From: Vermamoeba vermiformis
Taxonomy: Eukaryota
Assembly (NCBI GenBank): GCA_045837725.1
Contig: JBEWZL010000036.1
Coordinates: forward strand, 183,706-203,705
Length of the DNA stretch: 20,000 nt
Reading direction: 5' to 3'
Numbering within the stretch: position 1 is the first letter of the stretch; every line of letters begins with the position of its first letter. The notes under the pieces were generated by a model. The model was not told where the DNA came from. It was given only the letters and a program-made list of their open reading frames with translations, and did not search any database. Below are positions 8-20,000 of this stretch, piece by piece. The position numbers and the translations under genes are program-made.

Positions 8-2847
8 ATGGCCCGTAAAAAACCACCAGAATCGCAGTGAAGTACGTAGACGCTTACTGAATCGTACCGAAGGCTCGAATTATTTATTTAAATATCCAGT
101 AATTATTTCATTTTGCGGTCGATCGAGGGAAGATTGACGAGCAAGTCTGGTCTTGGCTTACGAGCATAGTCTGACCTCTTATTACTAGCTCCTCCTGATG
201 AACATCAGAATTGACGAAGGTCACCACGATAAGCGTAGCTGGGAACCTTGGAGTCAAGAGGAAATTAAAGTTTTTTTCGATTCGATCGTAAAATACGGCA
301 GAAACTGGGCTCTCATCGCGAAAGAAATTGGAACAAAGCGCCAAGAACAAGTAATTATTATCCCGATAATTATCAAGCCTTAATCAATTAATCAATAATT
401 CTATTTTTATTTTGAAAATAATGGCCAATTTAATTTCCAAAACCTCGTTTGCTTTTGCTCAAATCACACTAATATGTGATAAATAATTGATTATGTAATA
501 TTGTTAAATTAATGGCATTATTTAAATTCGTGTGAACGGTCAGCGGCCTCATCTCTTTACTCTCACTTGTGCACGTACTAATAATACTTTCCACTTCAGG
601 TTAGAACATATTTTTATAGATTACTTAAGAAGGTCACTAAATTGCTCGAGCCACTTCACTTTACTTTCGATTCTCGCGATCGGATGGACACTTTGATCGC
701 ACTCGTTTGCTATTGGGAAGCTAAGCGCGATCTTAATATACCAGAGGCGCCAAACCCATCTGCAACAGCGAGCTTAGCTAGAGCAGTGCGCGACAGAATT
801 ATTAAGTAAGTTCTAACAATATGGTTGAATTTCGTTTGAAAGTTTAGAGTACTTTGAACTTCCGTAATTAGTAGAAAGTGAAGTTCAAAGTAAGGAAATA
901 TGACCGAAAGAGCAAACAGTATTAATATTTATTTTCTCCAAAGACAACGCAAAGAGCTAGAACTGATGCGGTCGCGACGACTTCCAGCACCCGAGAAAAT
1001 TACATTCCAGCTCGTTCCTATAAGCAATGACATGGCGTCTGACTTATCGCAAGCTGGGTGTAACCCGCGATTACAGTAAGCGTCATTTTGGTCTTCTAAG
1101 AAATTAATTCTTGAAATTTACTAGCCGTTACACGAGCTAATTAAATTCGTGCAGGCTCACTGTTAAGTCAAGCAAGCGACTGTCGTCCATCATTCAGCAC
1201 TTAATGAGCAAGTGGACACGTCCTGGCAACGAAGGCAAGCGTGTCTCAATTGCCACTGGCCCTATTCGGTTGTTTCCGCACCTAAAAATGGGACATCCGG
1301 GTTGGGGAGTTGAGGACGAGGAAGTTACAGCGCTGAAGTTGTTTCATGCACTAGGGTGTCCTGAGATATGCAAAGTAGATTATAGTTGGAAGGCTGTACC
1401 AACTCAACCGACGCAACAACAGCATCTGGGATCGGATCTTAGTGCAGCGGAGCTCGAGCAATATTATCAATTATTCAATAATGCAGAAGGAAATGTTGCA
1501 ATCAAGAATGAAGGAAGCAATCATAGTGGCGAGAATAGTTATTCACCAGAAGGCCACTATTTTACGCTGGATGATTTTCATCACTCGGATGAGGACCACT
1601 TTGACGATCTGAACATCAAGTTGTCGTCGAATGATGCCTTTGGATTCGAGTCAGGCGAGAGTCACAGCTACAGCGTCGAAGAAAGACAAGTTATACTGCC
1701 GGACATTTCCATGAACACGTTAAACAATTTGTTGAACTCCGGTGGAGCGAGCACGAATCAAAGAACAGCTTGAATACCAGTCAAAGCGGACTCAATCTAT
1801 CTCCTGTATCGATCAACAACGCCAGCATCAACAACGTCACTGTTCAACAACAAGAACGAGAGAATGCAAACCAGCGAAGCATGTTGAACGCAAGTTTTTC
1901 CATACTTCACGATGCTTCGTCAATGGGCTTTGATGCGTCTAACGACATGTTTGGCACTGGCTTCAAGCACGCTACGTCATCGTTCTCAACTGCAGTGAAT
2001 AACTTGAAGGTCGAGAAGATCCAATCCGATCAGTCGCCGCCACCGTTCCTCGGAACTAACAATGGCACCAATGGGCAAGGCTATCCATCAAGGCCATCTC
2101 CTGTTACTAACGCTAAGCGAAGGTACGTTGGAAACATAACCACAATTTTTTCGATCGCAAAAGCGGATCAAAAAACCGAATCTGGATGCGCGAGTTGTTT
2201 AACCTCGTTAGATCGGCGCAGGAAGTACTTGTGGGCGTTCTTTGTTAGTGTTCGCAAGTAGTGACCCGAACACGATGTTGCAAAACGTCTCGGGCACGAC
2301 CACACTAACAAGAATGCACCGCTTCCCGTCCGATCAGCGAAGTTAAGCTTGTTCAGGCCTTCTTAGTACTGGGGTAGGAGACTACCTGGGAATCGGAGGT
2401 GTTGTGCTCTTTACTTTTTGCTTTTTTGCTTCGCTGCTTGGCTACCCGTACCCTTATTTCGCGTTATCATTATATCACCGAACATCTTTCGGCCTCCACA
2501 TCCAGATTCGAATCCGATTTCACTTTTTTTTGCTTATTGTTTTCAGACGGCATTACTAACGCGCAGTATTTAGATTACAACCGGAGTCCTTATTCAAAGA
2601 GGATTCGCTGGATGTTAGCGAGGTTCCTTTACGCGCATCAGCTGGTTCACGTAACAACGGCCCAAGTACCAACAACAAGACGTCTCTCGGTGTTCGACTC
2701 AACGAAAATGGCAAGCGAGACTTGCAGTCGTTCATTGAGGAGACGTCTTTCGTGCCATTTCGCTCTCAGGTATTCGGATCTGGCAGCACGCAGGAAGACA
2801 ACGACGGTTCTGCTGCTAAAAGGCGAAAGCTGGATTCGGTGCCTTGA
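8..2847 (+). CDS. CRAMP1: Cramped-like / TSL-kinase interacting protein 1 (TKI1)-like SANT/Myb-domain chromatin protein; one or two apparent 1-nt frameshifts
   Basis: Exons ~8-36/41, 209-350, 600-805, 944-1075, 1155-2122 (frame change near 1765), 2574-2847. Spliced product contains the SANT segment KRSWEPWSQEEIKVFFDSIVKYGRNWALIAKEIGTKRQEQ|VRTYFYRLLKKVTKLL and the Cramped/TKI1 block KITFQLVP...GCNPRLQ|LTVKSSKRLSSIIQHLMSKW. C-terminal NLS-like AKRRKL. The first exon is uncertain. Confidence 0.8.
2197..2269 (-). repeat. Degenerate inverted (antisense) copy of the 5S 5' half forming a fold-back with 2290-2348
   Basis: GTTTAACCTCGTTAGATCGG pairs with CCGATCAGCGAAGTTAAGC; GGAAG with CTTCC; GCGTTCTTTGTTAGTGT with ACACTAACAAGAATGC; GTAGTGACCCGA with TCGGGCACGAC. 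The blocks are in nested order. Confidence 0.9.
2292..2410 (+). rRNA. 5S rRNA gene, intronic, same strand as host gene
   Basis: 119 nt. Helix I GGGCACGAC (2292-2300) pairs fully with GTTGTGCTC (2401-2409). Conserved eukaryotic 5S segments CCCGTCCGATC, GAAGTTAAGC (box A), TAGTACT, GGAGAC (box C region) and GGGAA are present, followed by oligo-T runs. Confidence 0.95.
2410..2427 (+). terminator. RNA polymerase III oligo-T terminator of the 5S gene
   Basis: TTTacTTTTTgcTTTTTT directly after the 5S 3' end (T5 at 2415-2419, T6 at 2422-2427). Confidence 0.8.
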
Positions 2848-3093
2848 GCGAAGCTAGCAATTTAATTTCAGTGTACAATTACTACCCTTTCAACCGTAGC
2901 TTTAGCGAGAAAGCCAACCGATCTTTTCTTGTTTGAAGTTACGGATGGAGCTGTCGTGAGCGAAGAAGTGCAGTCGTTTAATTACAACTGCCTTCTTTAG
3001 CTTAGTTTTAAATCAGAGATATCAAAACAAGCGATAGACTCCTCAATGTAAATAAACGGATCAAATTATTTATTGTAACCCGATCTTCGTTTG

Positions 3094-4483
3094 TTACTTT
3101 CTCCCGTGTTCCGCGCTAGCATTTTTAGTACCAGAGTTGTTACGTGCGATCCATTCTCTCAGGTCAGTACTGCTAATAATGCGACAGGAGTGCTTCCAGA
3201 CAATTGTCAACGATTTCAAATTGAACTTTGATACTCGAAGTCCGTTCACATGATTGATGCCGTTGATGCCTGTAAAAGTCAGTTGTGCATACGTTATAAT
3301 GGTACTAATTACCTTCTTCGTTATTCTCGACAACAGCAGCCTCAATCTCCGGATCATTCATCAGCCTACATCCGTCCGAGTTCGGACACCTCGTTACAAT
3401 TTGAATCTATGCAATAAGTGATTAATCAAATCATTCTCATATGAAAATAAGTCTCTTACATCTTTTTCAGCGATTGTAGTGTCAATAATATCAAGGAAGT
3501 GTTTGACGCCTTCATTACGTGTTTCAATGCTCTCAATCAGCTCTTGATGCTTCTTGCCACCAAGTACAGCTAAAGGAAAATAATTAAGCCGGCACTTAGA
3601 CATAAAGGATATCAAGGCATACTGAGCACAGCTACTACAAGCTTTTTCTTGGCAACCAAAGTACCGAGGGTGATGAGCATTTTATGATCGAAATGAAGTC
3701 TGTCAAACGTTCCTAAGTGTTGAAAATGAGTTTAATTCTTGTAAAATTTGAACATTTTGCTTATTACCTGCTAATGAGACGCAATTGAACGATTTGTAAT
3801 TGAATTCGTGAGGCGTGTGATCTGTGGGCAAATTAGCTTCACCCAACGACTTTGATAGTTTGTGAATATGTTCTTCTTCTATTTGTTCTAATAATAAACT
3901 CGGAAGATTATTTTTCTGCCGCTTTTCATTCCATTGATTAAAAACTTCAGTGCCTAAAGCGAACTAGTTAGATCAGTTATCGTTATATTTCTATCAATTA
4001 ACTTACTATATGCAAATACATGCGTAATATCGTAAATTAAATATAGACGCACGCTATTGGGGAGTAAAATCGTTAAGTTTCGCGAGTAATCTTGGGCTGT
4101 TCGCTGGATGGCTGCAAAATGACCGTATACTCGAATCAGCACTTGTTGTGCTTGTTTAATCTATTATATTAGCGCGGGTTAGATGCATGCTACGCATTGT
4201 ACTCTTTAAGTTTCAATACGGCGTGAAAAGGTTGAAATTCGGTTTAAATATTTTAAAAAATACTTAAAAATCATACGTTAATAGGCCACGCCTCTGCAAA
4301 TGTCAAATATACATATAAGTGGCTGGTTTGTCTCCAACAATGCCTGGTAAATAATGGTGTCAGCAACGATACGGATCTAACTAAGTTTAGAATGGCGTAC
4401 TCGAGAAGTTCAAACGGAAATAATTCTAGATTATTTATTAGCAGCTCAATGCCGCCAATTTTTTGTTGTGCGTTGTGCTCCAT
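3094..4483 (-). CDS. Phosphopantetheine adenylyltransferase-like (CAB4/COASY PPAT domain; HIGH-family nucleotidyltransferase), divergent
   Basis: Exons 4483-4401, 4343-4277, 4160-4007, 3953-3768, 3712-3623, 3569-3460, 3406-3313, 3269-3094, all phase-compatible GT-AG. Motifs VSLAGTFDRLHFDHKMLI, KKHQELIESIETR, DPEIEAAVV, VNGLR and ISSTDLR. Confidence 0.8.
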
Positions 4484-4574: not shown

Positions 4575-6433
4575 ATGAGTCACAACGATAAGGTTAAATT
4601 ATTGAAGGACTTTGAACAGATGGCTATGAGATGCCGAAACGGAAATTTGGAGGTAACAACGGATCTCGTCTTTCTCGTAATATTGCAATTATATTAATAT
4701 TTTATATAGGTACTTGACCAAAGATTATTGCCTACGCAAGAGGTTTGGTTGCCCGTTGAGCGTATTGAACAGATGCACGATTACATCTTGCAGTTGGCTG
4801 TTCGTGGTGCACCCTTAATTGGATGTGCCGCTGCTTTGGCCCTCGCTGTTCATGTCGTTAAGGCTTGGCCCAAGTATGCTTATTAATTATTCATTTAACA
4901 TGAAGCGAGATAATTATGTTTTCGGATCCGACTCGTGAAAATTATTTAATAATTACAATAGGTGTTAATTAATTATTATATTATTTGTGTAATATTTATA
5001 GACTGTAAAACAAATTCTAAAATTGTTAATAATTCCAGCGATCCAGACATGATTAAAACTGCTGCTTACATTCGTTCAGCCAGGTAAATATACGCGCATA
5101 GTATTTATAGCCATAGTATTAATTATATCGTATTATTTGTAGACCTACAGCAGTTAATTTGATGTACGCAGTGGACGAGATCTTGCAGTTGCAAAAACCC
5201 GAGAATGAACGATCGCACAGCCCTGAAACAGTTTGCGAAATTGCATATAAACTCATGGATGACGAGGTATGTTATTAGTGAAGCACTTCAGAGTCATACG
5301 TACCAGTAGAGGCTTGATCCGGATCCTACAAACTGATCCTCAAGTATTCTAGCTACAATGCCCTCATAATTAAACCAACCAAAATAACATATCAGCTTGA
5401 CATATATAGTCTTAATAATAAGAGTCCATTCTAAATTTCCGTTTGTTTCTAGATTGCCATGTACGAGCGAATGTCAAAGTTTGGCGCTGACTTGATCAAG
5501 GATGGTAAGCGAATTCAGTCCATAATAGCTTATATATAGAGTATCAGAAGGCTATGTATATCAATCGGAGCGGTTAATTCTACTTTTTGAAGTAATCAAA
5601 GATATTTTAAGGAACAACAATGTGACACGTGTCAATGAGAAGTCACTCATGTATTTTACTATAGGCGATAATATTCTTACTCACTGCAACACTGGCGCGT
5701 TGGCGACGCCGGGCATGGGTACCGCACTGGGTGTCATTCGCGAGGCTCATCGTCGTGGCTTGAAAATTCACGTCTATGTTGACGAGACGCGACCCTTGCT
5801 TCAAGGAGGTCGTTTGACTACTTATGAGCTTCAAAAGGAAAAGATTCCTTATACTCTTATATGCGACAATATGGCAGCTACTTTAATGCGTCAAGGCAAA
5901 ATTCAGCGAATTTTTGTTGGTGCTGATCGGATCGCGATCAACGGAGACTTTGCCAATAAGATCGGTAAGAGCTCGCAGATATATTATAAAATAGTACATT
6001 CATATTATATGCCATATTTAATATTAATACGCGGATAGTCAGCGATGGTGTATTTTAAATAATTTTTTATTAGTTTGAGCTATGCGCAAAGCAGTTTAAT
6101 TTGAAGCTGAATCTAGATTAACGATTCAATGTTCCAGGAACATATAGCGTAGCAGTTGCGGCAAAATACCACAATGTCCCTTTCCATCCCGTAGCACCTC
6201 AATCAACGGTCGATTTTGAATGTTTGAACGGAGATCAGATCCCGATCGAAGAGCGCAAGCACGAGGAGGTGCGCGGAGCTTTTGGAACACGTTGGGCACC
6301 CGAAGAATGCAATACTTGGAACCCTGCATTCGATGTAACGCCAGGTGAGCTCGTTACATCGCTGATCTTGGACTCAGGAGTCTATGATACTGCAGCATTG
6401 CGCGATCGTGTATTGCTGAAGCTCAAGAAATAA
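4575..6433 (+). CDS. MRI1: Methylthioribose-1-phosphate isomerase (methionine salvage)
   Basis: Exons 4575-4652, 4710-4873, 5039-5083, 5143-5266, 5453-5504, 5665-5964, 6138-6433. Motifs [65 protein letters not shown] and NPAFDVTP. Confidence 0.96.
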
Positions 6434-7825: not shown

Positions 7826-9532
7826 TTAAAAGGCAAGAGCGAGTGCCATCAAAGCAATTGCAGGACCAACAGCTGAAGCGCTGCCAGTTTTTGCCTTTGG
7901 AGTGGCGGCAACAGGCGCGTTATTAGCCACAGGAGCACCGGCAGGACCATTGCACGTGAATCCATCGCCAGTGAAGCCTTCATTGCACACACACGAGTAT
8001 CCGAACATCTCTTCGATGCACTTCGCGTTCGCTGAACACTTGTTGGCACTGGCAGAAGCGCACTGGTCGTTGGGAATGAGCCAGATGCTGTTAAACGTTG
8101 GAATTGCTGAAAAGGGGGCTGAACCACCACCCACAATGAACATATCGCCGTTGAAGTTGATGCCGTTTGTACGAGCAGGATAAGCCGCGCCAGTATAATT
8201 CGAGCCAGTCTGACGATAGTTCACGAAGGAGGTAGTAACGTTGGCATCAACAGTGTGCGTGTCGCCGTGCACGAGCTTCCATTGCTTCAAACTCTTGTTG
8301 TACAGCCACACTTGGTTCAACGGTCCCCAAGTTCCGGCGTCATTGTATCCAGCAGTAGGAACCATCATTGCAGTGCCGTCCATGCGATCAACAAACAACA
8401 TGCCTTCACCACTGCCAGGATGATTGTCGGGATGATAGTCAGATGACACAGACACAGGATATGCACCAACAGTGTCAGGACCGAACTCGAGCTCCCACTT
8501 TCTCTTGACACGTGTGTCAAAGGTCCAAATGCTGCCATAGTCTTCGTAGCCACCAGCAGTGGTTCCCCAGCCGCCGTAAAGCCAGGCACGATCGTTCTCG
8601 TCGATGAAACAACCAGGAGTCCATACACCGCCAAACAACGTAGCGGTATAATTGAATGGCTGTTCGGTTATACTGCCAGTGATGAACTTCCATAGCAACG
8701 ATGTCGTGTTGAAGTGCCAAACACTGCTCGTCATGCCGTTCTTGTTGTAACCAGACAACAGCCAGAGGTCGTTGTTGGAGTCAGTGACCAGGCAACCTCC
8801 TCCCGTGTATCCAGGCCCCACGTCCTCTCCAGGTTGACCAGGATTAGCGCCGATGCTTGGATTGATGGTGTCCGGAAAGAGTCCATGCATTCTGACGAAC
8901 ATCATGGATGTGGTGTTGAACATCCAAAACTCGCCTCCATACTCGTAAGTAGTGAACCAAATATTATCATTCTTATCAACAGTGATGCTACTGTAGCGGA
9001 TTCCACCAGGGTGGTTCGTTTCAGCAGGTACTCGAAGGTCGCCAGGGTTGCGTGGATTCGTTCTGGCAGTTTCGTTGCTTCCCCAAACATATCGATACTG
9101 ATCTGTTTTAGGATTGTAGTTCCATGCGTTGTATAAATAATTTATTCCATTGCGAAACGAAGACCCAAACATGATCCAAAGAACGCCTTTCGAATCCATC
9201 GCTGCTAAAGGGCATGCTCCACGAGAACCAGCGCCAATGTCGATAGTAGTCCAAACACCTTTCTCGACAGTGTAGCTCTCAAAAATATCGGCTAAATTAT
9301 CGGACGTTAGTTTCGGCAGTACAGATTAAAAAAAACGTAATCTAATTAAAACAAGCGCGGCTATAAAACTGTATTGGCGCGCATTATATCATTGTTTGTA
9401 AATTTACTCACCAATACCGGTTTCATTAACGGTGGTTGGAGAAATCCAGATGGGTTCAAACGAGGCAGCCGTAGCGGTTCTGTAAAGTCCGCTCACAAAC
9501 AAGCAAAGAGCGACTGTAAGGTAGAGTCGCAT
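7826..9532 (-). CDS. Secreted kelch-like beta-propeller + EGF-domain surface protein, probable GPI anchor (copy A)
   Basis: Exons 9532-9412 and 9291-7826. Signal peptide MRLYLTVALCLFVSGLYRTATA; repeated D.nd.W.fGG...W.yn....W blades; EGF C-SANAKC-IEEMFGYSCVCNEGFTGDGFTC; Ala/Pro stalk; C-terminal SAS + hydrophobic tail. Confidence 0.85.
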
Positions 9533-9894: not shown

Positions 9895-11290
9895 CTAAAC
9901 GTTCTCGTAGTCCGCTGGTTTGAAGCCGCGAGGGTACGACCTTCCCAAATAAGGATCAATCGAAGTCAACGGAGGGTCAATTCGATTATACATAACACTA
10001 AAGTTGACATTCGTGAGTGCTGCTTGCTGGTCCAAGTAATCTTTGCACAAATTTGTTTGCTCCGCTTCCGATGGTACCACGTGACTGTCCGAGCCATATA
10101 TGCAGTTCTGATGTGCCAGTAAGTACTTGATACATTTCATAAGGCCAGGCTCATCGTACACAGGCAAGACAACGCCCAATGAAAATCCCCAATCAGGCTC
10201 CTCTTGTGCCTCGACAGCTCTGCGGAGATATTCCGTCGCACGCTCCAAACAAGCCTGATTATTCCACTCGGCACCGTGCTCGTGTGCATATGATAAACAA
10301 TTATACGCGCCATTTTCACTCGCGACGAGACACGTGTCAAGGTGCCACGGGGCGCCATGTTCGTGCGCATACTGAAGTGCTGCCAATTGATTTTTCCGCA
10401 CGGCGATAGCGGTGATGTCATCGGGCCAAGAGTAACCATTGTTGTATGTATATTCGTACATTGATATATCTCCCTTTTCGTAGAAAAATTCGAATGATTT
10501 GATGTCCGCGCGATAATTTTTCTGGAGCAAGTTGTCCACCATACTTGCAAGCATTGGGTTGGAGATGATATAACTAGGAATTGATGTCCATTTGGGTCTA
10601 ATACCTTGAGCCCACAGGTACTCGCACTTCTCTAAGTACCCATATTGTATAGTCTTCTCTATGTCGTGTGGCACAAACGGGATCCGGACCATTTTGTGAA
10701 TATATTCCAAACAACGAAGATCCTTGCTTTCACTACCAATAATAATTGACTTGAGATTTTCCTGCGAATAAGGATGTCCGTGTGATATAAGATATTCTAA
10801 TATGTCGTAATTATCTTTTGTTGCTGCTGCGTCGATGATCCGAAAGTGGGTCAAGTTATCGAAGCCAAATCCGTTTTCGTGCGCGAATTTAATGCACGAT
10901 AAATTTCCATTACGCGCAAACTGCTCTAATATGAGTGTATAATCGAGGTGTTCTTCGTAATGAGCTAGAACGCTTGGATGTGTCTTGCAAAGTTGATGAA
11001 GTTGTTTGTTGACCAGTGGTAAGAATAAAAAACTCGCTCGTGCATATAAATCACGACCTAATGATGCATATCCAATACGATCAATAATAAGGTTCCAAAT
11101 ATCATTCGGAAGCTCCTGAAAAATAATAATAACGTTAGAAAAATATTATTAAATTTCACATCGAGGGCTAAGGACCAAAATAGTTAAAAAATAATTTCAT
11201 AAATAATTATACAAATAGAATGGATATGCTGATGTGCGCCGAATGCCAATTTAACGAAAATTAAAAAAAATATTAACTTTGTCTTACCAT
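9895..11290 (-). CDS. F-box-like N-terminus + ankyrin-like repeat protein (xLxYAHExGxPW type)
   Basis: ATG (11290-11288), intron 11287-11116, then one in-frame exon 11115-9895 starting ELPNDIWNLIIDRI. Repeats ARNGNLSCIKFAHENG, LAALQYAHEHGAPW and ASENGAYNCLSYAHEHGAEW. Confidence 0.85.
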
Positions 11291-12446: not shown

Positions 12447-14194
12447 ATGCTAACACTATGGAGAGGTAGATCCCTCTTATTTAAGAATGATGCAATGCGC
12501 GGCTTCACTATTAGCACTCAACAGTGTGTAAGATCGTTTGCAACCGAAGCACATCCCGCTAAAGAAGAGTAAGAATTTTTTAAAATTATATGGGCACGAT
12601 ATCTTTTATCTAATATATGGTTGCGTATGAAGAATATCGTATTAGATTATTTGTATAATTTACTAATTTTTTGATGCCCGTAAAACCAACCTGCAGTAAC
12701 TTACAACGTTTCTTAGTAAGGGAATATTCAACAAAAAAGAAGCACAATCAATCAAAGGCAAATCTTCATCGTGAGTTCATAATTGGATTGTAGATCAGAT
12801 CGAACTAAAATTTGGTGTCAGATCAACTCAATGGCTACAAAGAAAATTCAACGATAAATTTACAAGAAAAGCTCACGAAGAGAATTTAATTTCACGAGCG
12901 GCATTTAAACTTCAAGAAATCCAACGCAAGTTTAGAATTATAAAACGAGGCAACATCGTCTTGGATCTCGGGTATGTGGCCTGATTAACAAATGAAGATA
13001 TCTTAAAATAATACTATATAACCAATAGAGCAGCACCTGGTGGTTGGAGTCAGGTAAGTTCTTGTTTAATTCGTCGCGTACTGGATCTCATCGAGCTCGA
13101 TCCTTTTAGATTGCTTCTCGATTATGCGTCTACAGTTCTGAAAAGAAAGCGGAGCTTGAAAAAGACGAAGAAGATCGAATGTCGAGAGGGCAGGTCTTTA
13201 GTGTTGATATTAAGGGTATAGACTCATTCGTAAAACTCCGAGATTGTGGATCGGAACTAAATTTTTTAATTTTAGAAATGGAACCTATTAGAGGCTGTAT
13301 ATGCCTTAAGCTGGACTTTACGGAAGATTCCGCTGTAAATACAATCAATTTAATGCTCCGCGGACGGACAACAAACGTCGTATTAAGGTAAGGGGATCCG
13401 GCCTTATTTGTCAAGTACTAACGATTGGTTTAGTGATATGGCCCCGTCATATTCCGGTCAAAAAGATATCGATCACATGCGATTGATGGTATGCAATTCC
13501 ATTGTATCAAATTTAAGTTTTTAGATGCAGACCTGGAAATTTACCGTCGAGTCCCAAATTGGTGCCAATTTAGTCTTTCATATGTGAACCGTTTTATTAT
13601 TAGTTTGTGTCTATCGTGATTTCCGTAGTTCATTTGCTGACAAGAAAATATACCGATCAGGATCTGAGCACTCGCGCGTTTGAGTTTGCAAAGAAAGTAT
13701 TAAAGTCCGGAGGTCATATAGTGCTTAAAGTGAGCCGCGGAGGAACAGAAGGACAGCTTAAAAAGAAGTTAGAAGAATGTTTCAGAAAAGTCCAATATTT
13801 CAAACCGGATTCATCGTTCAAAGATTCAACGGAGATATATTTAGTTGGCATTGGTTTTAAGAGGCCAAAGAGCGCTCAAAATGAAGATAGTTATCAATTC
13901 AATTACACGAGAGTCCCAAACACAGACACAAACATAGACAAGTTTGACCAAACGTTGACCGAAAAATCAAAGTCCACGGATCTGCCTCCAAATACTCAAA
14001 AGCCAGGCGCAAACGATACTATGAATACTAGTAGCACTATAGTTAAGGAAAATAGGAAGGTGCAGTCAGAAGTAAAGACAAGCAGTGAAACTCCAGCCGC
14101 GCAAGTACATCCACCTAAGAAAAGTTCTGCAGCAAGTAAGAAACAAGACAAGTATCAGATCAATAAGGTGTTTGGATACAAAAAGCTAATATAG
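12447..14194 (+). CDS. MRM2: Mitochondrial rRNA 2'-O-methyltransferase (RlmE/FtsJ family)
   Basis: Exons 12447-12568, 12717-12770, 12822-12971, 13029-13053, 13110-13215, 13276-13387, 13434-13488, 13661-14194. Presequence-like MLTLWRGRSLL...VRSFAT; motifs SSTQWLQR, SRAAFKLQEI, VLDLGAAPGGWSQ, LSDMAP and FKPDSS...STEIYLV. Confidence 0.93.
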
Positions 14195-15664: not shown

Positions 15665-17894
15665 TTATTTTCTAAATCCACCGCATTCCTCTTCGTAATT
15701 TGCAGGTATCAATTCTTTCGCTGTTTTCAAGAAATCTTCAACCGGACAAAGAGTGCGATCACATCCCTTCGGCAGCACTTCGTGGTGATTATAAATAAAC
15801 TTGACGAAGCGTTTGTTGCTAGTCTTATTTCTCCACAGCTCCCATACAATAAACGCGCCCATGTCTGGATGCTTATTATCAAATACCTATGCAATGTATA
15901 ATTAACGACTGCGGATCCAGGAAGAGACATTGCAAGTTTTGGATTGCCTTATTTAGAAAGTATTTCCGAAGCGAATCGGATCTTACCTTGAAAGCATTCA
16001 GCAGTGGTGATAAAGTATTGTCGTGACCTGAGTACAAGTACATCTTGGGCTTCAATTGTTTTTCGTGGCTCGGCGTGTCAATCTGTTCTTGGACCACATC
16101 CGTAAGATTTTTTATAAATCGACCAATGGCAAGACGACTAATTTCTTGCGAGCCAAACAAATCTGCGTATTCCTGACCACTCAATAAACCTACGAAAAGT
16201 TCGTAAGTAAGATAGGCCGATTGACAAAGTTTGAAATTTCACGGCTGAGGATCCATTAAATATATATTACGATTATACGCAGCACGTTATAACTATTATC
16301 ATATAATTTGGAAACACAAACTGAAATTTAGCATTATTGTCCGAAAATAAAATTTAAAACTTACCAATGTTATGCACGTCACCTGGCGAGATATTTTTAG
16401 GCAACGGAAAATCGTGATAAATCGCTGAATATAGCGTGTTGAATAGTGCTTGAAGCTCTTTTTTGGCCCACACACTGCACTCTTTTTGTTCTTCTTCGGA
16501 TTCGGCTCCCGCGCAAAACATTTTCTGACCAACATAGTATCTTATTAGTATAAGCTATATAATATAATACTAATCGATATAAAAGTACTAATTTACTGCT
16601 ATTGTTTAAGCAAGGTATTTCAACGACGAATTTTATTCTTAAAAGTTGATTTTCAAGCGGAATACCGTCGGTTGTATTTAGCGGTATTGAGCCGAAAGGT
16701 CCAGCGATAGTATTAAGAACGATATTGGAGTATTATAGTATTGTGTCTATAAATGTAAATGTATACCAAATTATACGTTTAGAATGCCAGTTTGTGTTTA
16801 AAAATACTTAAGCAATTCAATAATTCTTACCGTGATTTTCTCTTGTCTCTCGATCTGTTGCGGTGCTATTCGCAAGTCTTTGACGGCTTGATGAATTTTC
16901 GAGCAGGAATGTCTATAATTAGAAACGTTTTAGTCGAGGGAACTGAATCGACCCAAAATCCATTGATATCGCTTAATAACCGATGCTAATATAGAGTATA
17001 TGGCCTACGAACATACCTCGGATACATGTTCTCGCTGGCACGATCGAAGATATTAACAGTTAAAATTTCTAAAATAGGAAATAAAGTTAACTACTTTAGA
17101 CTACATTAAGGATATTATATGAGTACTTACGTCCGTCTGAACGAGTGTTACGAGGATATAAACCACTTAAGATAGTATAAGCGGTTTCAATTGTTCTTTT
17201 GGAATCGGTTGATCGAATCCACAACGAGTTCAAATCCAGGTTATGAGGCAACAGCTTGTACTCCTCAACGTAGCGATGACGAAGATATTCACCTGTCTTC
17301 TTAATGTCTTTCAAGCCTTTAGCTGTTAATTGGCCCATGTAACAGTTTCCAGCCTCGTTACGTCGCGTCACTAAAAAAAATTATTCTTAGCATTTATTCT
17401 TAATTTCTAAAAATATTATTTATATGTTTATAATATTGTAGACACTATTTCATCACAATCTAACTGTAATAGTCGCAAATTGAAAATTAAGATTTTGTCT
17501 AAAAATTCCTTTTCATTTTGCATCGTTAACTAGACGTTCAATTAAGCTAGAAGTAACTTAAATTATTATAATACGTACTTTTTTCAGCCTCAAATTGATT
17601 GTACGAGACTGGAGGTTCGCCGCCTCGCGAGATCAGAAGATCATGAATTTTCTCTTGCAAGTTGTCGCACTGCCATTCAGTCTTGTCATATGGATGAGGG
17701 TATCTACTAAGAGGTGTTCGAACTCCATGGCGGGTGATCACTTGGATTTGTTCCAGTTCGAGATTTGGATCGGTTGGATGTCTATGCTCGATGTGCGCAA
17801 GATATGGAAGTGTTTGAAGCAAGGACGATGGTGCACCAAAAGAGGTTATGCTTGTGGCACCATATACAGCGGATAGTAAGTGATAACCAAACAT
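15665..17894 (-). CDS. Histidine acid phosphatase (branch 2; ACP6/lysophosphatidic acid phosphatase-like)
   Basis: Exons 17894-17579, 17370-17131, 17068-17017, 16912-16831, 16524-16365, 16189-15987, 15886-15665. Motifs QVITRHGVRTP, GQLTAKG, IRSTDSKRTIETA, YSGHDNTL and LCPVEDF. Confidence 0.92.
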
Positions 17895-18053
17895 AATTAG
17901 TCTTGTTTTGTTGTCGTTGTATCTTGGCACAAAAATAAAATGAAAAGTTGAGAGCTTTTCCGGTTTTTTTGCTTGTTTTGATGACGTGTCCTAGCACCAC
18001 TATAAGTGCAAATATTTTGTGAAAGACGAAGAGAGTCGCAAAGATTTTTTTGG

Positions 18054-18908: not shown

Positions 18909-20000
18909 TTTTATTTTAATATTAGAATATTCGCTACAAAATAACTAATAATTAATTTAAAAGGCAAGAGCGAGTGCCATCAAAGCAACTGCAGGACCAA
19001 CAACTGAAGCGCTGCTAGTTTTTGCCTTTGGAGTGGCGGCAACAGGCGCGCTAGCCACAGGAGCAGCAACAGGGGCAACGGGAATGGCATTGCAAGTGAA
19101 TCCATCGCCAGTGAAGCCTTCATTGCACACACACGAGTATCCGAACATCTCTTCGATGCACTTCGCGTTCGCTGAACACTTGTTGGCACTGGCAGAAGCG
19201 CACTGGTCGTTGGGAATGAGCCAGATGCTGTTATAATTTGGAGTCCCTTTATTGGTGCCTGGACCACCACCCACAACGTACATATCGCCGTTGAAGTTGA
19301 TACCATTAGTACGAGCAGGAAAGGTCACGCCAGTATAATTCGAACCAGTCTGACGATAGTTCACAAAGGAAGTAGTAATATCGGCATCAACCGTGTGCGT
19401 GTCGCCGTGCACGAGCTTCCACTGCTTCAACGTCTTGTTGTACAGCCACACTTGGTTCAACGGTCCCCAGTTTCCATCGTCGGTGTATCCAGCAGTAGCA
19501 ACCATCATTGCAGTGCCGTCCATGCGATCAACAAACAGCATGCCTTCACCACTGCCAGGATGATTGTCGGGATGATAGTCAGCGGACACAGACACAGGAT
19601 ATGCACCAACAGTGTCAGGACCGAACTCGGGCTCCCACTCTCGCTTGACACGCGTGTCAAAGGTCCAAATGCTGCCATAGTCTTCGTAGCCATTAGCAGT
19701 GTTTCCCCAGCCACTGTAGAGCCAGACACGATCGTTCTCATCGATGAAACAACCAGGATTCCATACACCACCAAAATATGTAGCATTATAATTGACTTTC
19801 TGTTCGGTAATGCTGCCAGTGATGAAAGTCCATAGCAACGATGTTGTGTTGAAGTGCCAAACACTGCTATGGACGCCGTAGCTGTTGTAACCAGACAACA
19901 GCCAGATGTCGTTGTTGGAGTCAGTGACCAGGCATGCTGCTTCCGAATATCCAGGCCACACGTCCTCTCCAGGTTGGCCAGGATTAGCGCCGATGCTTGG
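18909..20000 (+). repeat. Direct duplication of ~7775-8860, including ~50 nt of 3' flank
   Basis: Shared 3' flank ATATTCGCTACAAAATAACTAATAATTAATTTAAAAGG; 7956-8093 is identical to 19096-19233. Confidence 0.92.
18957..20000 (-). CDS. Kelch-propeller + EGF + GPI surface protein, copy B (5' part beyond window)
   Basis: Colinear paralog of 7826-8860 at an offset of about 11.1 kb. The ORF stays open to the window end. Confidence 0.88.
   Translation of the reverse strand, partial: PSIGANPGQPGEDVWPGYSEAACLVTDSNNDIWLLSGYNSYGVHSSVWHFNTTSLLWTFITGSITEQKVNYNATYFGGVWNPGCFIDENDRVWLYSGWGNTANGYEDYGSIWTFDTRVKREWEPEFGPDTVGAYPVSVSADYHPDNHPGSGEGMLFVDRMDGTAMMVATAGYTDDGNWGPLNQVWLYNKTLKQWKLVHGDTHTVDADITTSFVNYRQTGSNYTGVTFPARTNGINFNGDMYVVGGGPGTNKGTPNYNSIWLIPNDQCASASANKCSANAKCIEEMFGYSCVCNEGFTGDGFTCNAIPVAPVAAPVASAPVAATPKAKTSSASVVGPAVALMALALAF

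What the first reader, a model, noticed from the sequence alone, without database searches (positions are those of the whole stretch)
2123..2573. Intact 5S rRNA gene nested in a spliceosomal intron of a Cramped/TKI1-like gene
Seen: a 451-nt intron (GTACGT at 2123, TACTAAC at 2554-2560, TAG at 2573) whose removal restores the host frame through to TGA 2847. It contains a full 119-nt 5S with intact helix I, internal promoter boxes and an oligo-T terminator, as a single copy in sense orientation. Known: 5S genes are usually tandem, rDNA-linked or linked to other repeated gene families, and are dispersed in some fungi and Acanthamoeba. Inference: this is either a Pol III unit operating inside a Pol II gene or a 5S released from the excised intron, and it may represent a genome-wide intron-hosted 5S organisation.
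Basis: partly seen in the sequence, partly recalled or inferred. Interest (0 to 1): 0.85.

Follow-up and report, generated by a model that had tools for sequence, protein, structure and literature searches.

The report
5S rRNA gene inside a spliced intron
A complete 5S ribosomal RNA gene, one copy of a scattered high-copy family, sits inside an intron of a protein-coding gene that is still spliced normally, which is a tidy curiosity rather than a new mechanism.

Summary
Rfam places a full-length 5S rRNA at 2292-2410 (+), 104.7 bits against a cut-off of 38. It lies in a 451-nt GT..AG intron (2123-2573) of a SANT/Myb protein gene.

Spliced contigs from two runs of two studies join 2122 to 2574 and run on to about 3056. 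The DNA run does not show this joint.

The copy matches the majority sequence of a very high-copy 5S family that occurs in other flanks. Other copies share about 36 nt upstream of the gene and T-runs directly after it.

A second copy, 119/119 identical (L017), follows a tRNA-Ile gene in what appears to be an intron of an aminopeptidase gene, also in sense.

Most likely reading: an autonomous Pol III gene of a dispersed family, nested in a Pol II intron. Transcription of this copy was not tested. A genome-wide intron-hosted layout rests on one independent extra case, and no genome was available.

In a second organism with a related dispersed 5S family, the seven contexts I read were mixed: one intronic, one undecided, five not in a recognisable intron. 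Interest is modest.

The parts
198..350 (+). Host exon 1 from the first ATG after an in-frame stop; carries the SANT/Myb domain
   Evidence: PF00249 E 4.7e-8; ORF map. The exon 1/2 junction (351-599) is read from the sequence only and has no RNA support.
600..805 (+). Host exon 2
   Evidence: Frame. In X4 and X8 the 30 letters lying before 944 equal window 776-805, so intron 806-943 is removed in the RNA contigs.
944..1075 (+). Host exon 3
   Evidence: Joint 1075->1155 (skips 79, GT..AG) in X4 and X8, absent from DNA run X1.
1155..2122 (+). Host exon 4; the window has a frame break near 1745
   Evidence: ORFs 1141-1773 and 1635-2261 overlap in different frames. At 1745 the X4 contig has +T; X1 contigs have +T (depth 132.6) or -2 (291.8), both frame-restoring, and no X1 contig crosses 1745 in the window's form. 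Relatives P0001 and P0002 read straight through.
2123..2573 (+). Spliceosomal intron 4 (451 nt) that holds the 5S gene
   Evidence: GTACGT...TACTAAC...TAG. The spliced joint appears in one contig each of X4 and X8 and in none of X1. P0001 and P0002 end at or just past ...KRR, as an unspliced reading into a GTA... donor at this spot would give.
2255..2291 (+). Upstream block shared with other 5S copies; candidate Pol III upstream promoter region, including AGTAGTGACCCGA at 2258-2270
   Evidence: X1 contigs diverge from the window just before 2255 and 2257. Another X1 copy keeps AGTAGTGAC-T-CGA at the same distance while the 17 nt after it differ. L017 shares CGCAAGTAGTGACCCGA and CGTCTC. Function is inferred.
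2292..2410 (+). 5S rRNA gene, 119 nt, same strand as the host
   Evidence: RF00001 104.7 bits, full length. No variant letter at 10% or more across it in X1. 119/119 identical to L017.
2411..2427 (+). Trailer with T5 and T6 runs; presumed Pol III terminator
   Evidence: Sequence. L017 has TTAC followed by T8, and X1 copies diverge after 2412 and 2426. Termination is inferred.
2177..2188 (+). Left arm of a perfect 12-nt inverted repeat bracketing the 5S unit
   Evidence: I2. An inverted repeat of 12 nt or more arose in 2 of 1000 dinucleotide shuffles. It is paired in the MFE fold.
2499..2510 (+). Right arm of the 12-nt inverted repeat
2554..2560 (+). TACTAAC, presumed branch site 13 nt before the 3' splice site
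   Evidence: Sequence. Branch use was not tested.
2574..2847 (+). Host exon 5 coding part, ending at TGA 2845-2847
   Evidence: Frame; covered by the spliced contigs of X4 and X8.
2848..3056 (+). Host 3' UTR; AATAAA at 3051-3056
   Evidence: The X8 contig runs to 3056 and the X4 contig to 2952; sequence.

Best explanation
This is an autonomous RNA polymerase III 5S rRNA gene. It is one member of a high-copy dispersed 5S family, and it lies in sense orientation inside an older intron of a Pol II gene for a SANT/Myb protein.

Shown: the gene is complete and identical to the family's majority sequence. The intron is spliced out of the host mRNA. The same 5S occurs in other flanks.

Inferred: Pol III starts at G2292. 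It uses the internal control region of the 5S and probably the shared upstream block of about 36 nt. It stops at the T5/T6 runs at 2415-2427. Pol II reads through, the intron is excised with its embedded 5S sequence, and that copy is discarded. The 12-nt inverted repeat around the unit may draw the intron ends together and help splicing of an intron lengthened by the insertion.
For: - Full-length RF00001 match, 104.7 bits, all helices canonical.
- Summed contig depth on the 5S bins in DNA run X1 is 62,600-273,597 against 324-422 on the flanks. No variant letter reaches 10% within 2292-2410. Of 216 contigs laid, 19 run on into sequence that does not fit the window (they may lie anywhere in 900-3100). 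The 5S junctions shown lie before 2254, 2256, 2287 and 2291 and behind 2412 and 2426.
- L017 holds an identical 5S in a different gene, sharing CGCAAGTAGTGACCCGA upstream, CGTCTC directly before the gene and TTAC plus a T-run after it.
- One X1 copy keeps the AGTAGTGAC-T-CGA motif at the same distance while the spacer after it has diverged.
- In a second organism whose 5S is 94/119 identical, 22 distinct upstream flanks carry almost no information from -60 to -37 and become conserved from -36 to -1. 31 of the 36 downstream flanks tallied there start directly with T3 or more; the other five are L017 (TTAC then T8), L010 (TC then T5), the two copies of a deleted variant that throws the register out, and L012, whose flank was wrongly merged with those of L019, L022 and L034.
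- Intron 4 is 451 nt against 79, 138 and 249 nt for the other three. Relatives at 89% and 79% identity have ORFs that stop at the same exon end, so the intron position is older than these lineages.
- The intron flanks differ from X1 by indels at 2146 and 2465 and SNPs at 2209/2210, while the 5S is unchanged.
Against: - No RNA evidence for transcription of this or any 5S copy. X4 and X8 have zero depth on the 5S, which the tool says proves nothing. Raw-read run X21 laid no reads.
- The shared upstream block could reflect recent duplication rather than promoter function.
- In L017 the motif sits about 43 nt further upstream. One X1 copy shows no motif in its last 30 nt.
- The depth ratio is not a copy number, by the tool's own warning.
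Confidence: 0.7

Rival explanations
1. A silent passenger. The copy is intact but not transcribed, or hardly so, because Pol II passage or local chromatin blocks Pol III complex assembly. It looks perfect only because it was copied or gene-converted recently.
For: No expression data exist for this copy. With a family this large, individual copies are dispensable. X1 also holds a 5S variant with a 48-nt internal deletion (2337->2386), so dead copies do exist.
Against: The copy is identical to the majority sequence and to L017. Terminator and upstream block are intact. The 5S is unchanged while the surrounding intron carries indels and SNPs between the window and X1.
Confidence: 0.2
2. An intron-derived 5S. 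The mature RNA is cut out of the excised host intron, as intronic snoRNAs are, without Pol III.
For: Sense orientation in the window, in L017 and in L005. The intron as a whole folds well, z = -3.85, although the 5S itself contributes to that.
Against: T-runs directly after the gene and a shared upstream block have no use in this scheme. The host mRNA contigs are shallow, depth about 8-10, against a ribosomal demand. In the related organism, copies of the same design lie outside recognisable introns, for example after the EF-1alpha stop.
Confidence: 0.05
3. The 5S unit is cargo of a mobile element, or its insertion created the intron. The 12-nt inverted repeat would be terminal repeats, and the 10-nt direct repeat TTACTAACGC (2104 and 2553) a target duplication.
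For: An inverted repeat of 12 nt or more arose in only 2 of 1000 shuffles. TTACTAACGC recurs 449 nt apart, next to both splice sites.
Against: Taking the direct repeat as a target duplication gives a pre-insertion exon in the wrong frame (my reading). The repeated unit seen in X1 ends at about 2255 and 2426, well inside the inverted repeat. L017 shares no inverted-repeat arm in the part available. Relatives seem to have an intron at the same site. No flanking duplication surrounds 2255-2426.
Confidence: 0.05

Closest known systems
Dispersed (scattered) 5S rRNA genes of Acanthamoeba castellanii, Neurospora crassa and Schizosaccharomyces pombe
   Same: Single 5S genes scattered through the genome rather than in tandem arrays or in the rDNA unit. 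PMC1635290 calls this rare and names these three (passages read). Here too there is one copy per context, many contexts and its own flanking signals.
   Different: The passages I read say nothing about introns ('intron' occurs 0 times in that paper). Here the copy lies inside a spliced intron of a Pol II gene. The organism is unidentified, so membership in any of those lineages is untested.
[quoted passage not shown]
   Same: Pol III genes with internal promoters lying inside Pol II introns. In C. elegans the intronic share was not different from chance, and host promoters influence the nested tRNA (PMC4999229, abstract and passages; PMC3342880, listing abstract and passages). L017 shows a tRNA-Ile in the same kind of place.
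   Different: The cargo here is a 5S rRNA gene (type 1 promoter) from a very high-copy family. Host influence on its expression is untested.
Intron-encoded snoRNAs processed from pre-mRNA
   Same: A small structured RNA gene in sense inside a host intron (PMC3349704, abstract seen in a search listing only).
   Different: snoRNAs of that kind lack their own promoter and terminator. This 5S has T-runs and a shared upstream block, and sister copies of the same design in a related organism lie outside introns.

Membership tests
5S rRNA (Rfam RF00001) | Covariance-model score above the curated threshold over the full model | tested here: met
   104.7 bits against 38, model 1-120/120, E 2.1e-22; repeated on 2100-2600.
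5S rRNA (Rfam RF00001) | Closed helix I and canonical pairing in all helices | tested here: met
   No non-canonical pair is flagged in the cmscan alignment.
5S rRNA (Rfam RF00001) | Same sequence as the cell's main 5S species | tested here: inconclusive
   Identical to the majority of the high-depth genomic family (no variant at 10% or more in X1) and to L017. The mature RNA itself was not seen in any run laid.
Functional Pol III type 1 gene | Oligo-T terminator directly downstream | tested here: met
   T5 at 2415-2419 and T6 at 2422-2427; the same design in L017 and in copies of a related organism.
Functional Pol III type 1 gene | Transcription by Pol III (occupancy, triphosphate 5' end) | not testable with these tools
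   No suitable RNA or ChIP data. X21 laid 0 reads.
Spliceosomal (U2-type) intron | GT..AG ends, and removal seen in RNA but not in DNA | tested here: met
   Joint 2122/2574 in one contig each of X4 and X8 (two studies), none in X1. X4 and X8 are labelled RNA only by the tool's guess. Three precise intron removals and empty intron bins support that label.
Spliceosomal (U2-type) intron | Reading frame restored by removal | tested here: met
   AG|A forms AGA and the frame stays open to TGA 2845-2847.
Intron-processed small RNA (snoRNA-like) | No promoter or terminator of its own; depends on the host transcript | tested here: not met
   Own T-runs, and an upstream block shared among copies in unrelated flanks.
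Cramped / TKI1-like SANT proteins (host) | SANT/Myb domain | tested here: met
   PF00249 E 4.7e-8, 33.5 bits against 24.4.
Cramped / TKI1-like SANT proteins (host) | Family-specific region beyond the SANT domain | tested here: inconclusive
   No Pfam hit on exons 2-5. The atlas lists a 'cramped-like' cluster (PF27753) only at rank 7, score 0.76, below its own reliability line.
5S-derived SINE / retroposed copy | Tail, target-site duplication, truncated or altered 5S body | tested here: not met
   Full-length 5S. The shared unit includes upstream non-transcribed sequence. No flanking direct repeat surrounds 2255-2426.

The most novel reading that the evidence does not exclude
In this organism Pol III genes (5S and tRNA) are preferentially housed in sense orientation inside introns of Pol II genes. 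Their accessibility or output would then be coupled to host-gene transcription. Long-range intron stems, such as the 12-nt inverted repeat here, would have evolved to keep the enlarged introns spliceable. Support: the only independent second context found (L017) has a tRNA-Ile and an identical 5S, both in sense, after a GTAAGT donor in the middle of a peptidase domain.
Probability: 0.12. Interest if true: 0.7.

Novelty: new member of a known kind. Interest (0 to 1): 0.35.

Why it matters
The locus shows a complete, canonical 5S gene living inside a transcribed and correctly spliced Pol II gene. It is a natural test case for how Pol III complexes and elongating Pol II share one template: interference, roadblocks, or coupling to the host promoter as reported for intronic tRNAs in C. 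elegans.

It also documents another eukaryote with scattered 5S genes, an arrangement described as rare (PMC1635290). The compact gene unit is about 36 nt upstream, 119 nt of gene and a T-run.

If intron hosting proved to be the rule in this genome, that would be a new way of organising a ribosomal RNA gene family. On present evidence it is most simply the expected outcome of scattering hundreds of small self-contained genes through a compact, intron-containing genome.

Tried and rejected
- **Whole genome:** none is held, so the proposed genome-wide cmsearch could not be run.
- **More copies of this organism's 5S:** a 40-nt window-specific pattern gave 0 hits in genome contigs and 0 in viral contigs. 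The metagenome scan gave only L017 (1 of 43 copies on 40 loci).
- **Orthologous intron in relatives:** I searched the protein collection with the wrong-frame ORF that runs from the 5S into the last exon, and with the antisense ORF across the 5S and its upstream block. Neither found anything, not even the window's own ORFs. The contigs behind P0001 and P0002 could not be fetched, so whether relatives carry the 5S in this intron is unknown.
- **Raw RNA run X21:** 0 reads laid, so no test.
- **Decayed tRNA in the window's intron** (GATTCGAATCC-like stretch near 2505): rejected. There is no Rfam match at E<=10 and no ARAGORN gene.
- **Target-site-duplication reading of TTACTAACGC:** rejected on frame.
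- **A bracketing stem as a general feature:** not seen in the intronic copy L005 of the other organism.
- **Organism identity:** the two atlas searches gave only 'Eukaryota', so it stays unidentified.
- **Literature:** six searches turned up no report of a functional 5S gene in a spliceosomal intron. The library lacks most subscription journals, and supplements were not read.
Full report
**What is there**

The window is from an intron-containing eukaryote of unknown identity, with GC of 33-51% per kb. No whole genome is held.

Rfam finds exactly one RNA family match in the 20 kb. It is a 5S rRNA at 2292-2410 on the + strand: 104.7 bits against a gathering score of 38, covering model positions 1-120 of 120, with no non-canonical pair flagged. 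A permissive rescan of 2100-2600 finds nothing else. ARAGORN finds no tRNA in the window.

T5 (2415-2419) and T6 (2422-2427) follow the 5S.

**The host gene**

Reading frames and splice signals give this model:

| Exon | Coordinates |
|---|---|
| 1 | ATG 198-350 |
| 2 | 600-805 |
| 3 | 944-1075 |
| 4 | 1155-2122 |
| 5 | 2574-2847 |

Exon 1 carries a SANT/Myb domain (PF00249, E 4.7e-8). The other exons have no Pfam match. A language-model look-alike search lists a 'cramped-like' cluster only at rank 7, score 0.76, which by the tool's own scale is a lead and no more. So 'SANT/Myb protein' is shown, and 'Cramped/TKI1-like' is plausible but unproven.

The window has a frame break near 1745. Laid contigs carry either an extra T (the X4 contig; one X1 contig, depth 132.6) or a 2-base deletion (another X1 contig, depth 291.8). 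Both restore the frame, and no X1 contig crosses 1745 in the window's form. Two relatives, P0001 at 89% and P0002 at 79% identity, read straight through. The break is therefore an assembly or allele artefact, not a dead host gene.

**Is the intron real and does the host transcript cross the 5S?**

I laid window 900-3100 on four runs.

- X4 and X8 come from two studies. The tool labels them RNA by a guess.
- Each has one contig joining 2120 to 2572, equivalent to 2122/2574, GT..AG, skipping 451 nt, with 255 letters on the shorter side.
- Each also has one contig joining 1075 to 1155.
- In each, the 30 letters before 944 equal window 776-805, so a third intron (806-943) is removed as well.
- Both runs have zero depth in bins 2158-2527. 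Their contigs run on to 2952 (X4) and 3056 (X8), where AATAAA lies at 3051-3056.
- DNA run X1 covers exons and intron evenly and shows none of these joints.
- Raw-read run X21 laid no reads and is no test.

It ends about 650 nt beyond the 5S.

**The 5S is one of many copies**

In X1 the summed contig depth on the 5S bins is 62,600-273,597, against 324-422 on the flanks. The tool warns that this is not a copy number, but it does point to a very large family. No alternative letter reaches 10% within 2292-2410, so this copy carries the majority sequence.

Of the 216 X1 contigs laid, 19 run on into sequence that does not fit the window; they may lie anywhere in 900-3100. The 5S junctions shown lie just before 2254, 2256, 2287 and 2291 and behind 2412 and 2426.

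The repeated unit is therefore about 36-38 nt of upstream sequence, the 119-nt gene and a 16-nt T-rich trailer. One X1 copy keeps AGTAGTGAC-T-CGA at the same distance from the gene while the 17 nt after it differ. That pattern suggests constraint on the motif. Another copy shows no such motif in its last 30 nt.

**A second context**

A metagenome scan with a 33-nt core of the 5S returned 40 contigs holding 43 copies. Only one of them, L017, is 119/119 identical to the window's 5S.

On L017 the 5S (13-131, minus strand, 104.7 bits) is preceded on the same strand by a tRNA-Ile(AAT) gene (388-461; Rfam 65.4 bits). Before that come exons of an AMP_N plus Peptidase_M24 gene.

The last exon of that gene stops at M24 profile position 96 of 208, directly before GTAAGT. 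The other half of the domain must lie further on. Both Pol III genes therefore appear to sit in an intron, in sense. This is an inference, because the contig ends 12 nt after the 5S.

L017 shares with the window CGCAAGTAGTGACCCGA upstream (about 43 nt further from the gene), CGTCTC directly before the gene and TTAC plus a T-run after it. Otherwise the two introns are unrelated.

**A related organism as a comparison**

Of the other 42 copies, 41 belong to a different organism. Its commonest 5S (20 of the 34 full-length copies) is 94/119 identical to the window's. The remaining copy, L010, is a further divergent form (85/119).

- These copies lie singly, or in two cases as divergent pairs, on contigs up to 13.6 kb.
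- Across 22 distinct upstream flanks the information content is 0.0-0.3 bits from -60 to -37, and rises to 0.2-1.7 bits from -36 to -1.
- 31 of the 36 downstream flanks tallied start directly with T3 or more. The other five are L017, L010, two copies of a deleted variant and one wrongly merged flank.

This is the same gene-unit design as in the window.

Their contexts are mixed. I read seven in detail:

| Context | Reading |
|---|---|
| L005 | Between collinear parts of one short-chain dehydrogenase (adh_short_C2 positions 148-179 before the 5S, E 8.8e-6; 191-224 after it, E 0.017, weak alone), same strand: intronic |
| L027 | Methyltransferase domain starts at profile position 32 just after the 5S: may be intronic, undecided |
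| L012, L038 | About 215-290 nt after the stop of an EF-1alpha gene |
| L013/L018 | Between two minus-strand genes |
| L028/L029 (two copies) | Divergent pair next to the end of a LIM-domain gene |

That gives one intronic, one undecided and five not in a recognisable intron. I did not classify the remaining contexts. Some contigs share one flank but not the other, so a few may be mis-joined at the repeat.

**How it most likely works**

The best reading is a self-contained Pol III gene nested in a Pol II intron. Initiation would be at G2292, directed by the 5S internal control region and probably the upstream block. Termination would be at the T-runs. Pol II reads through, and the spliceosome removes the intron with its embedded 5S sequence.

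- Shown: integrity of the gene, its identity with the family majority, splicing of the host, and the presence of the same unit in other flanks.
- Inferred: everything about transcription of this particular copy.

The intron position seems older than the insertion. P0001 and P0002 end at or just past ...KRR, as an unspliced reading into a GTA... donor would give. This intron is also 451 nt, against 79-249 nt for the other three.

A perfect 12-nt inverted repeat (2177-2188 / 2499-2510) brackets the unit. An inverted repeat of that length or more arose in 2 of 1000 dinucleotide shuffles. It is paired in the minimum-energy fold (-141 kcal/mol against -117 +/- 6 for shuffles, z = -3.85). It could shorten the effective distance between the splice sites, but that is speculation, and L005 shows no counterpart.

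**Rivals**

- *A silent copy* cannot be excluded, since no run shows 5S RNA.
- *Release from the excised intron* would make the terminator and upstream block pointless. It would also tie a ribosomal RNA to a weakly represented mRNA (contig depth about 8-10).
- *A mobile-element or intron-creating insertion* is suggested by the inverted repeat and by the 10-nt direct repeat TTACTAACGC at 2104 and 2553. However, the implied pre-insertion exon is out of frame, and the family's repeat unit ends well inside the inverted repeat.

**Is intron hosting the rule?**

The window was picked because its copy is intronic, so it cannot be counted. That leaves one independent context (L017), which is intronic and sense. 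By my rough estimate, with introns at about a fifth of this gene (466 of 2408 nt without the 5S intron), such a placement has a chance of about one in ten. That is suggestive and nothing more.

**Comparison with what is known**

- Scattered 5S genes are described as rare and are named for Neurospora, S. pombe and Acanthamoeba (PMC1635290, passages).
- Pol III genes nested in introns are well known for tRNAs in Caenorhabditis. There the intronic share did not differ from chance, and the host promoter affects the nested gene (PMC4999229, abstract and passages; PMC3342880, listing abstract and passages).
- Six full-text searches found no report of a functional 5S gene in a spliceosomal intron. 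The library is incomplete and supplements were closed.

I therefore file this as a new member of a known kind, the intron-nested Pol III gene, drawn from a known kind of family, the dispersed 5S genes.

**Verdict**

- Observation: confirmed.
- Interpretation: partly supported.
- Mechanism: autonomous Pol III unit, confidence 0.7.
- Interest: 0.35.

Noticed in passing
window 1740-1746: The window's host gene has a frame break here. Laid contigs carry +T or -2 at 1745 (both restore the frame), and no DNA contig crosses the spot in the window's form. This is probably an assembly error at a heterozygous indel. X1 also differs from the window by -1 at 2146 (a T-run) and -8 at 2465.
   Followed up: partly
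L017 388-461 (-) and 13-131 (-): A tRNA-Ile(AAT) gene and an identical 5S gene lie one after the other, both in sense. They follow a GTAAGT donor that interrupts the Peptidase_M24 domain of an aminopeptidase gene at profile position 96 of 208. The contig ends 12 nt after the 5S.
   Followed up: partly
L001-L040 except L010 and L017: A second, unidentified organism has a dispersed 5S family (94/119 identical to the window's). It has 22 distinct upstream flanks that become conserved only from -36 to -1, in at least two sub-families, and a T-run directly after the gene. One copy (L005 3566-3684) lies between collinear exons of a short-chain dehydrogenase. Others follow EF-1alpha or form divergent pairs.
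   Followed up: partly
window 2104-2113 and 2553-2562: The 10-nt direct repeat TTACTAACGC lies 449 nt apart, one copy 9 nt before the 5' splice site (in the exon) and one at the branch site. TACTAAC occurs only 5 times on the + strand of the window. Relatives do not conserve the exon copy at protein level (VTNAK against VMGSK and VIGK). Unexplained.
   Followed up: partly
window 2337-2386 (seen in run X1): One X1 contig (depth 187.6) carries a 5S with a 48-nt internal deletion, so truncated 5S copies exist elsewhere in that DNA.
   Followed up: no
L010 282-314 (-): A 5S-like sequence shares the 33-nt core, but its 3' half is different (85/119 to the window). It is either a third organism's 5S or a degenerate copy.
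   Followed up: no
window 7826-9325 (-) and 18957-20000 (-): Two closely similar single-exon genes for Kelch-like plus EGF-domain proteins lie about 11 kb apart. They look like a recent duplication.
   Followed up: no
window 5529-6433 (+): Two exons match the IF-2B family (PF01008, profile 91-198 and 193-278). By my recollection of that family this looks like a methylthioribose-1-phosphate isomerase or an eIF2B subunit. Other neighbours are an ankyrin-repeat gene (9895-11145, -), an FtsJ-like methyltransferase (13604-14194, +) and a histidine phosphatase (17547-17990, -).
   Followed up: no
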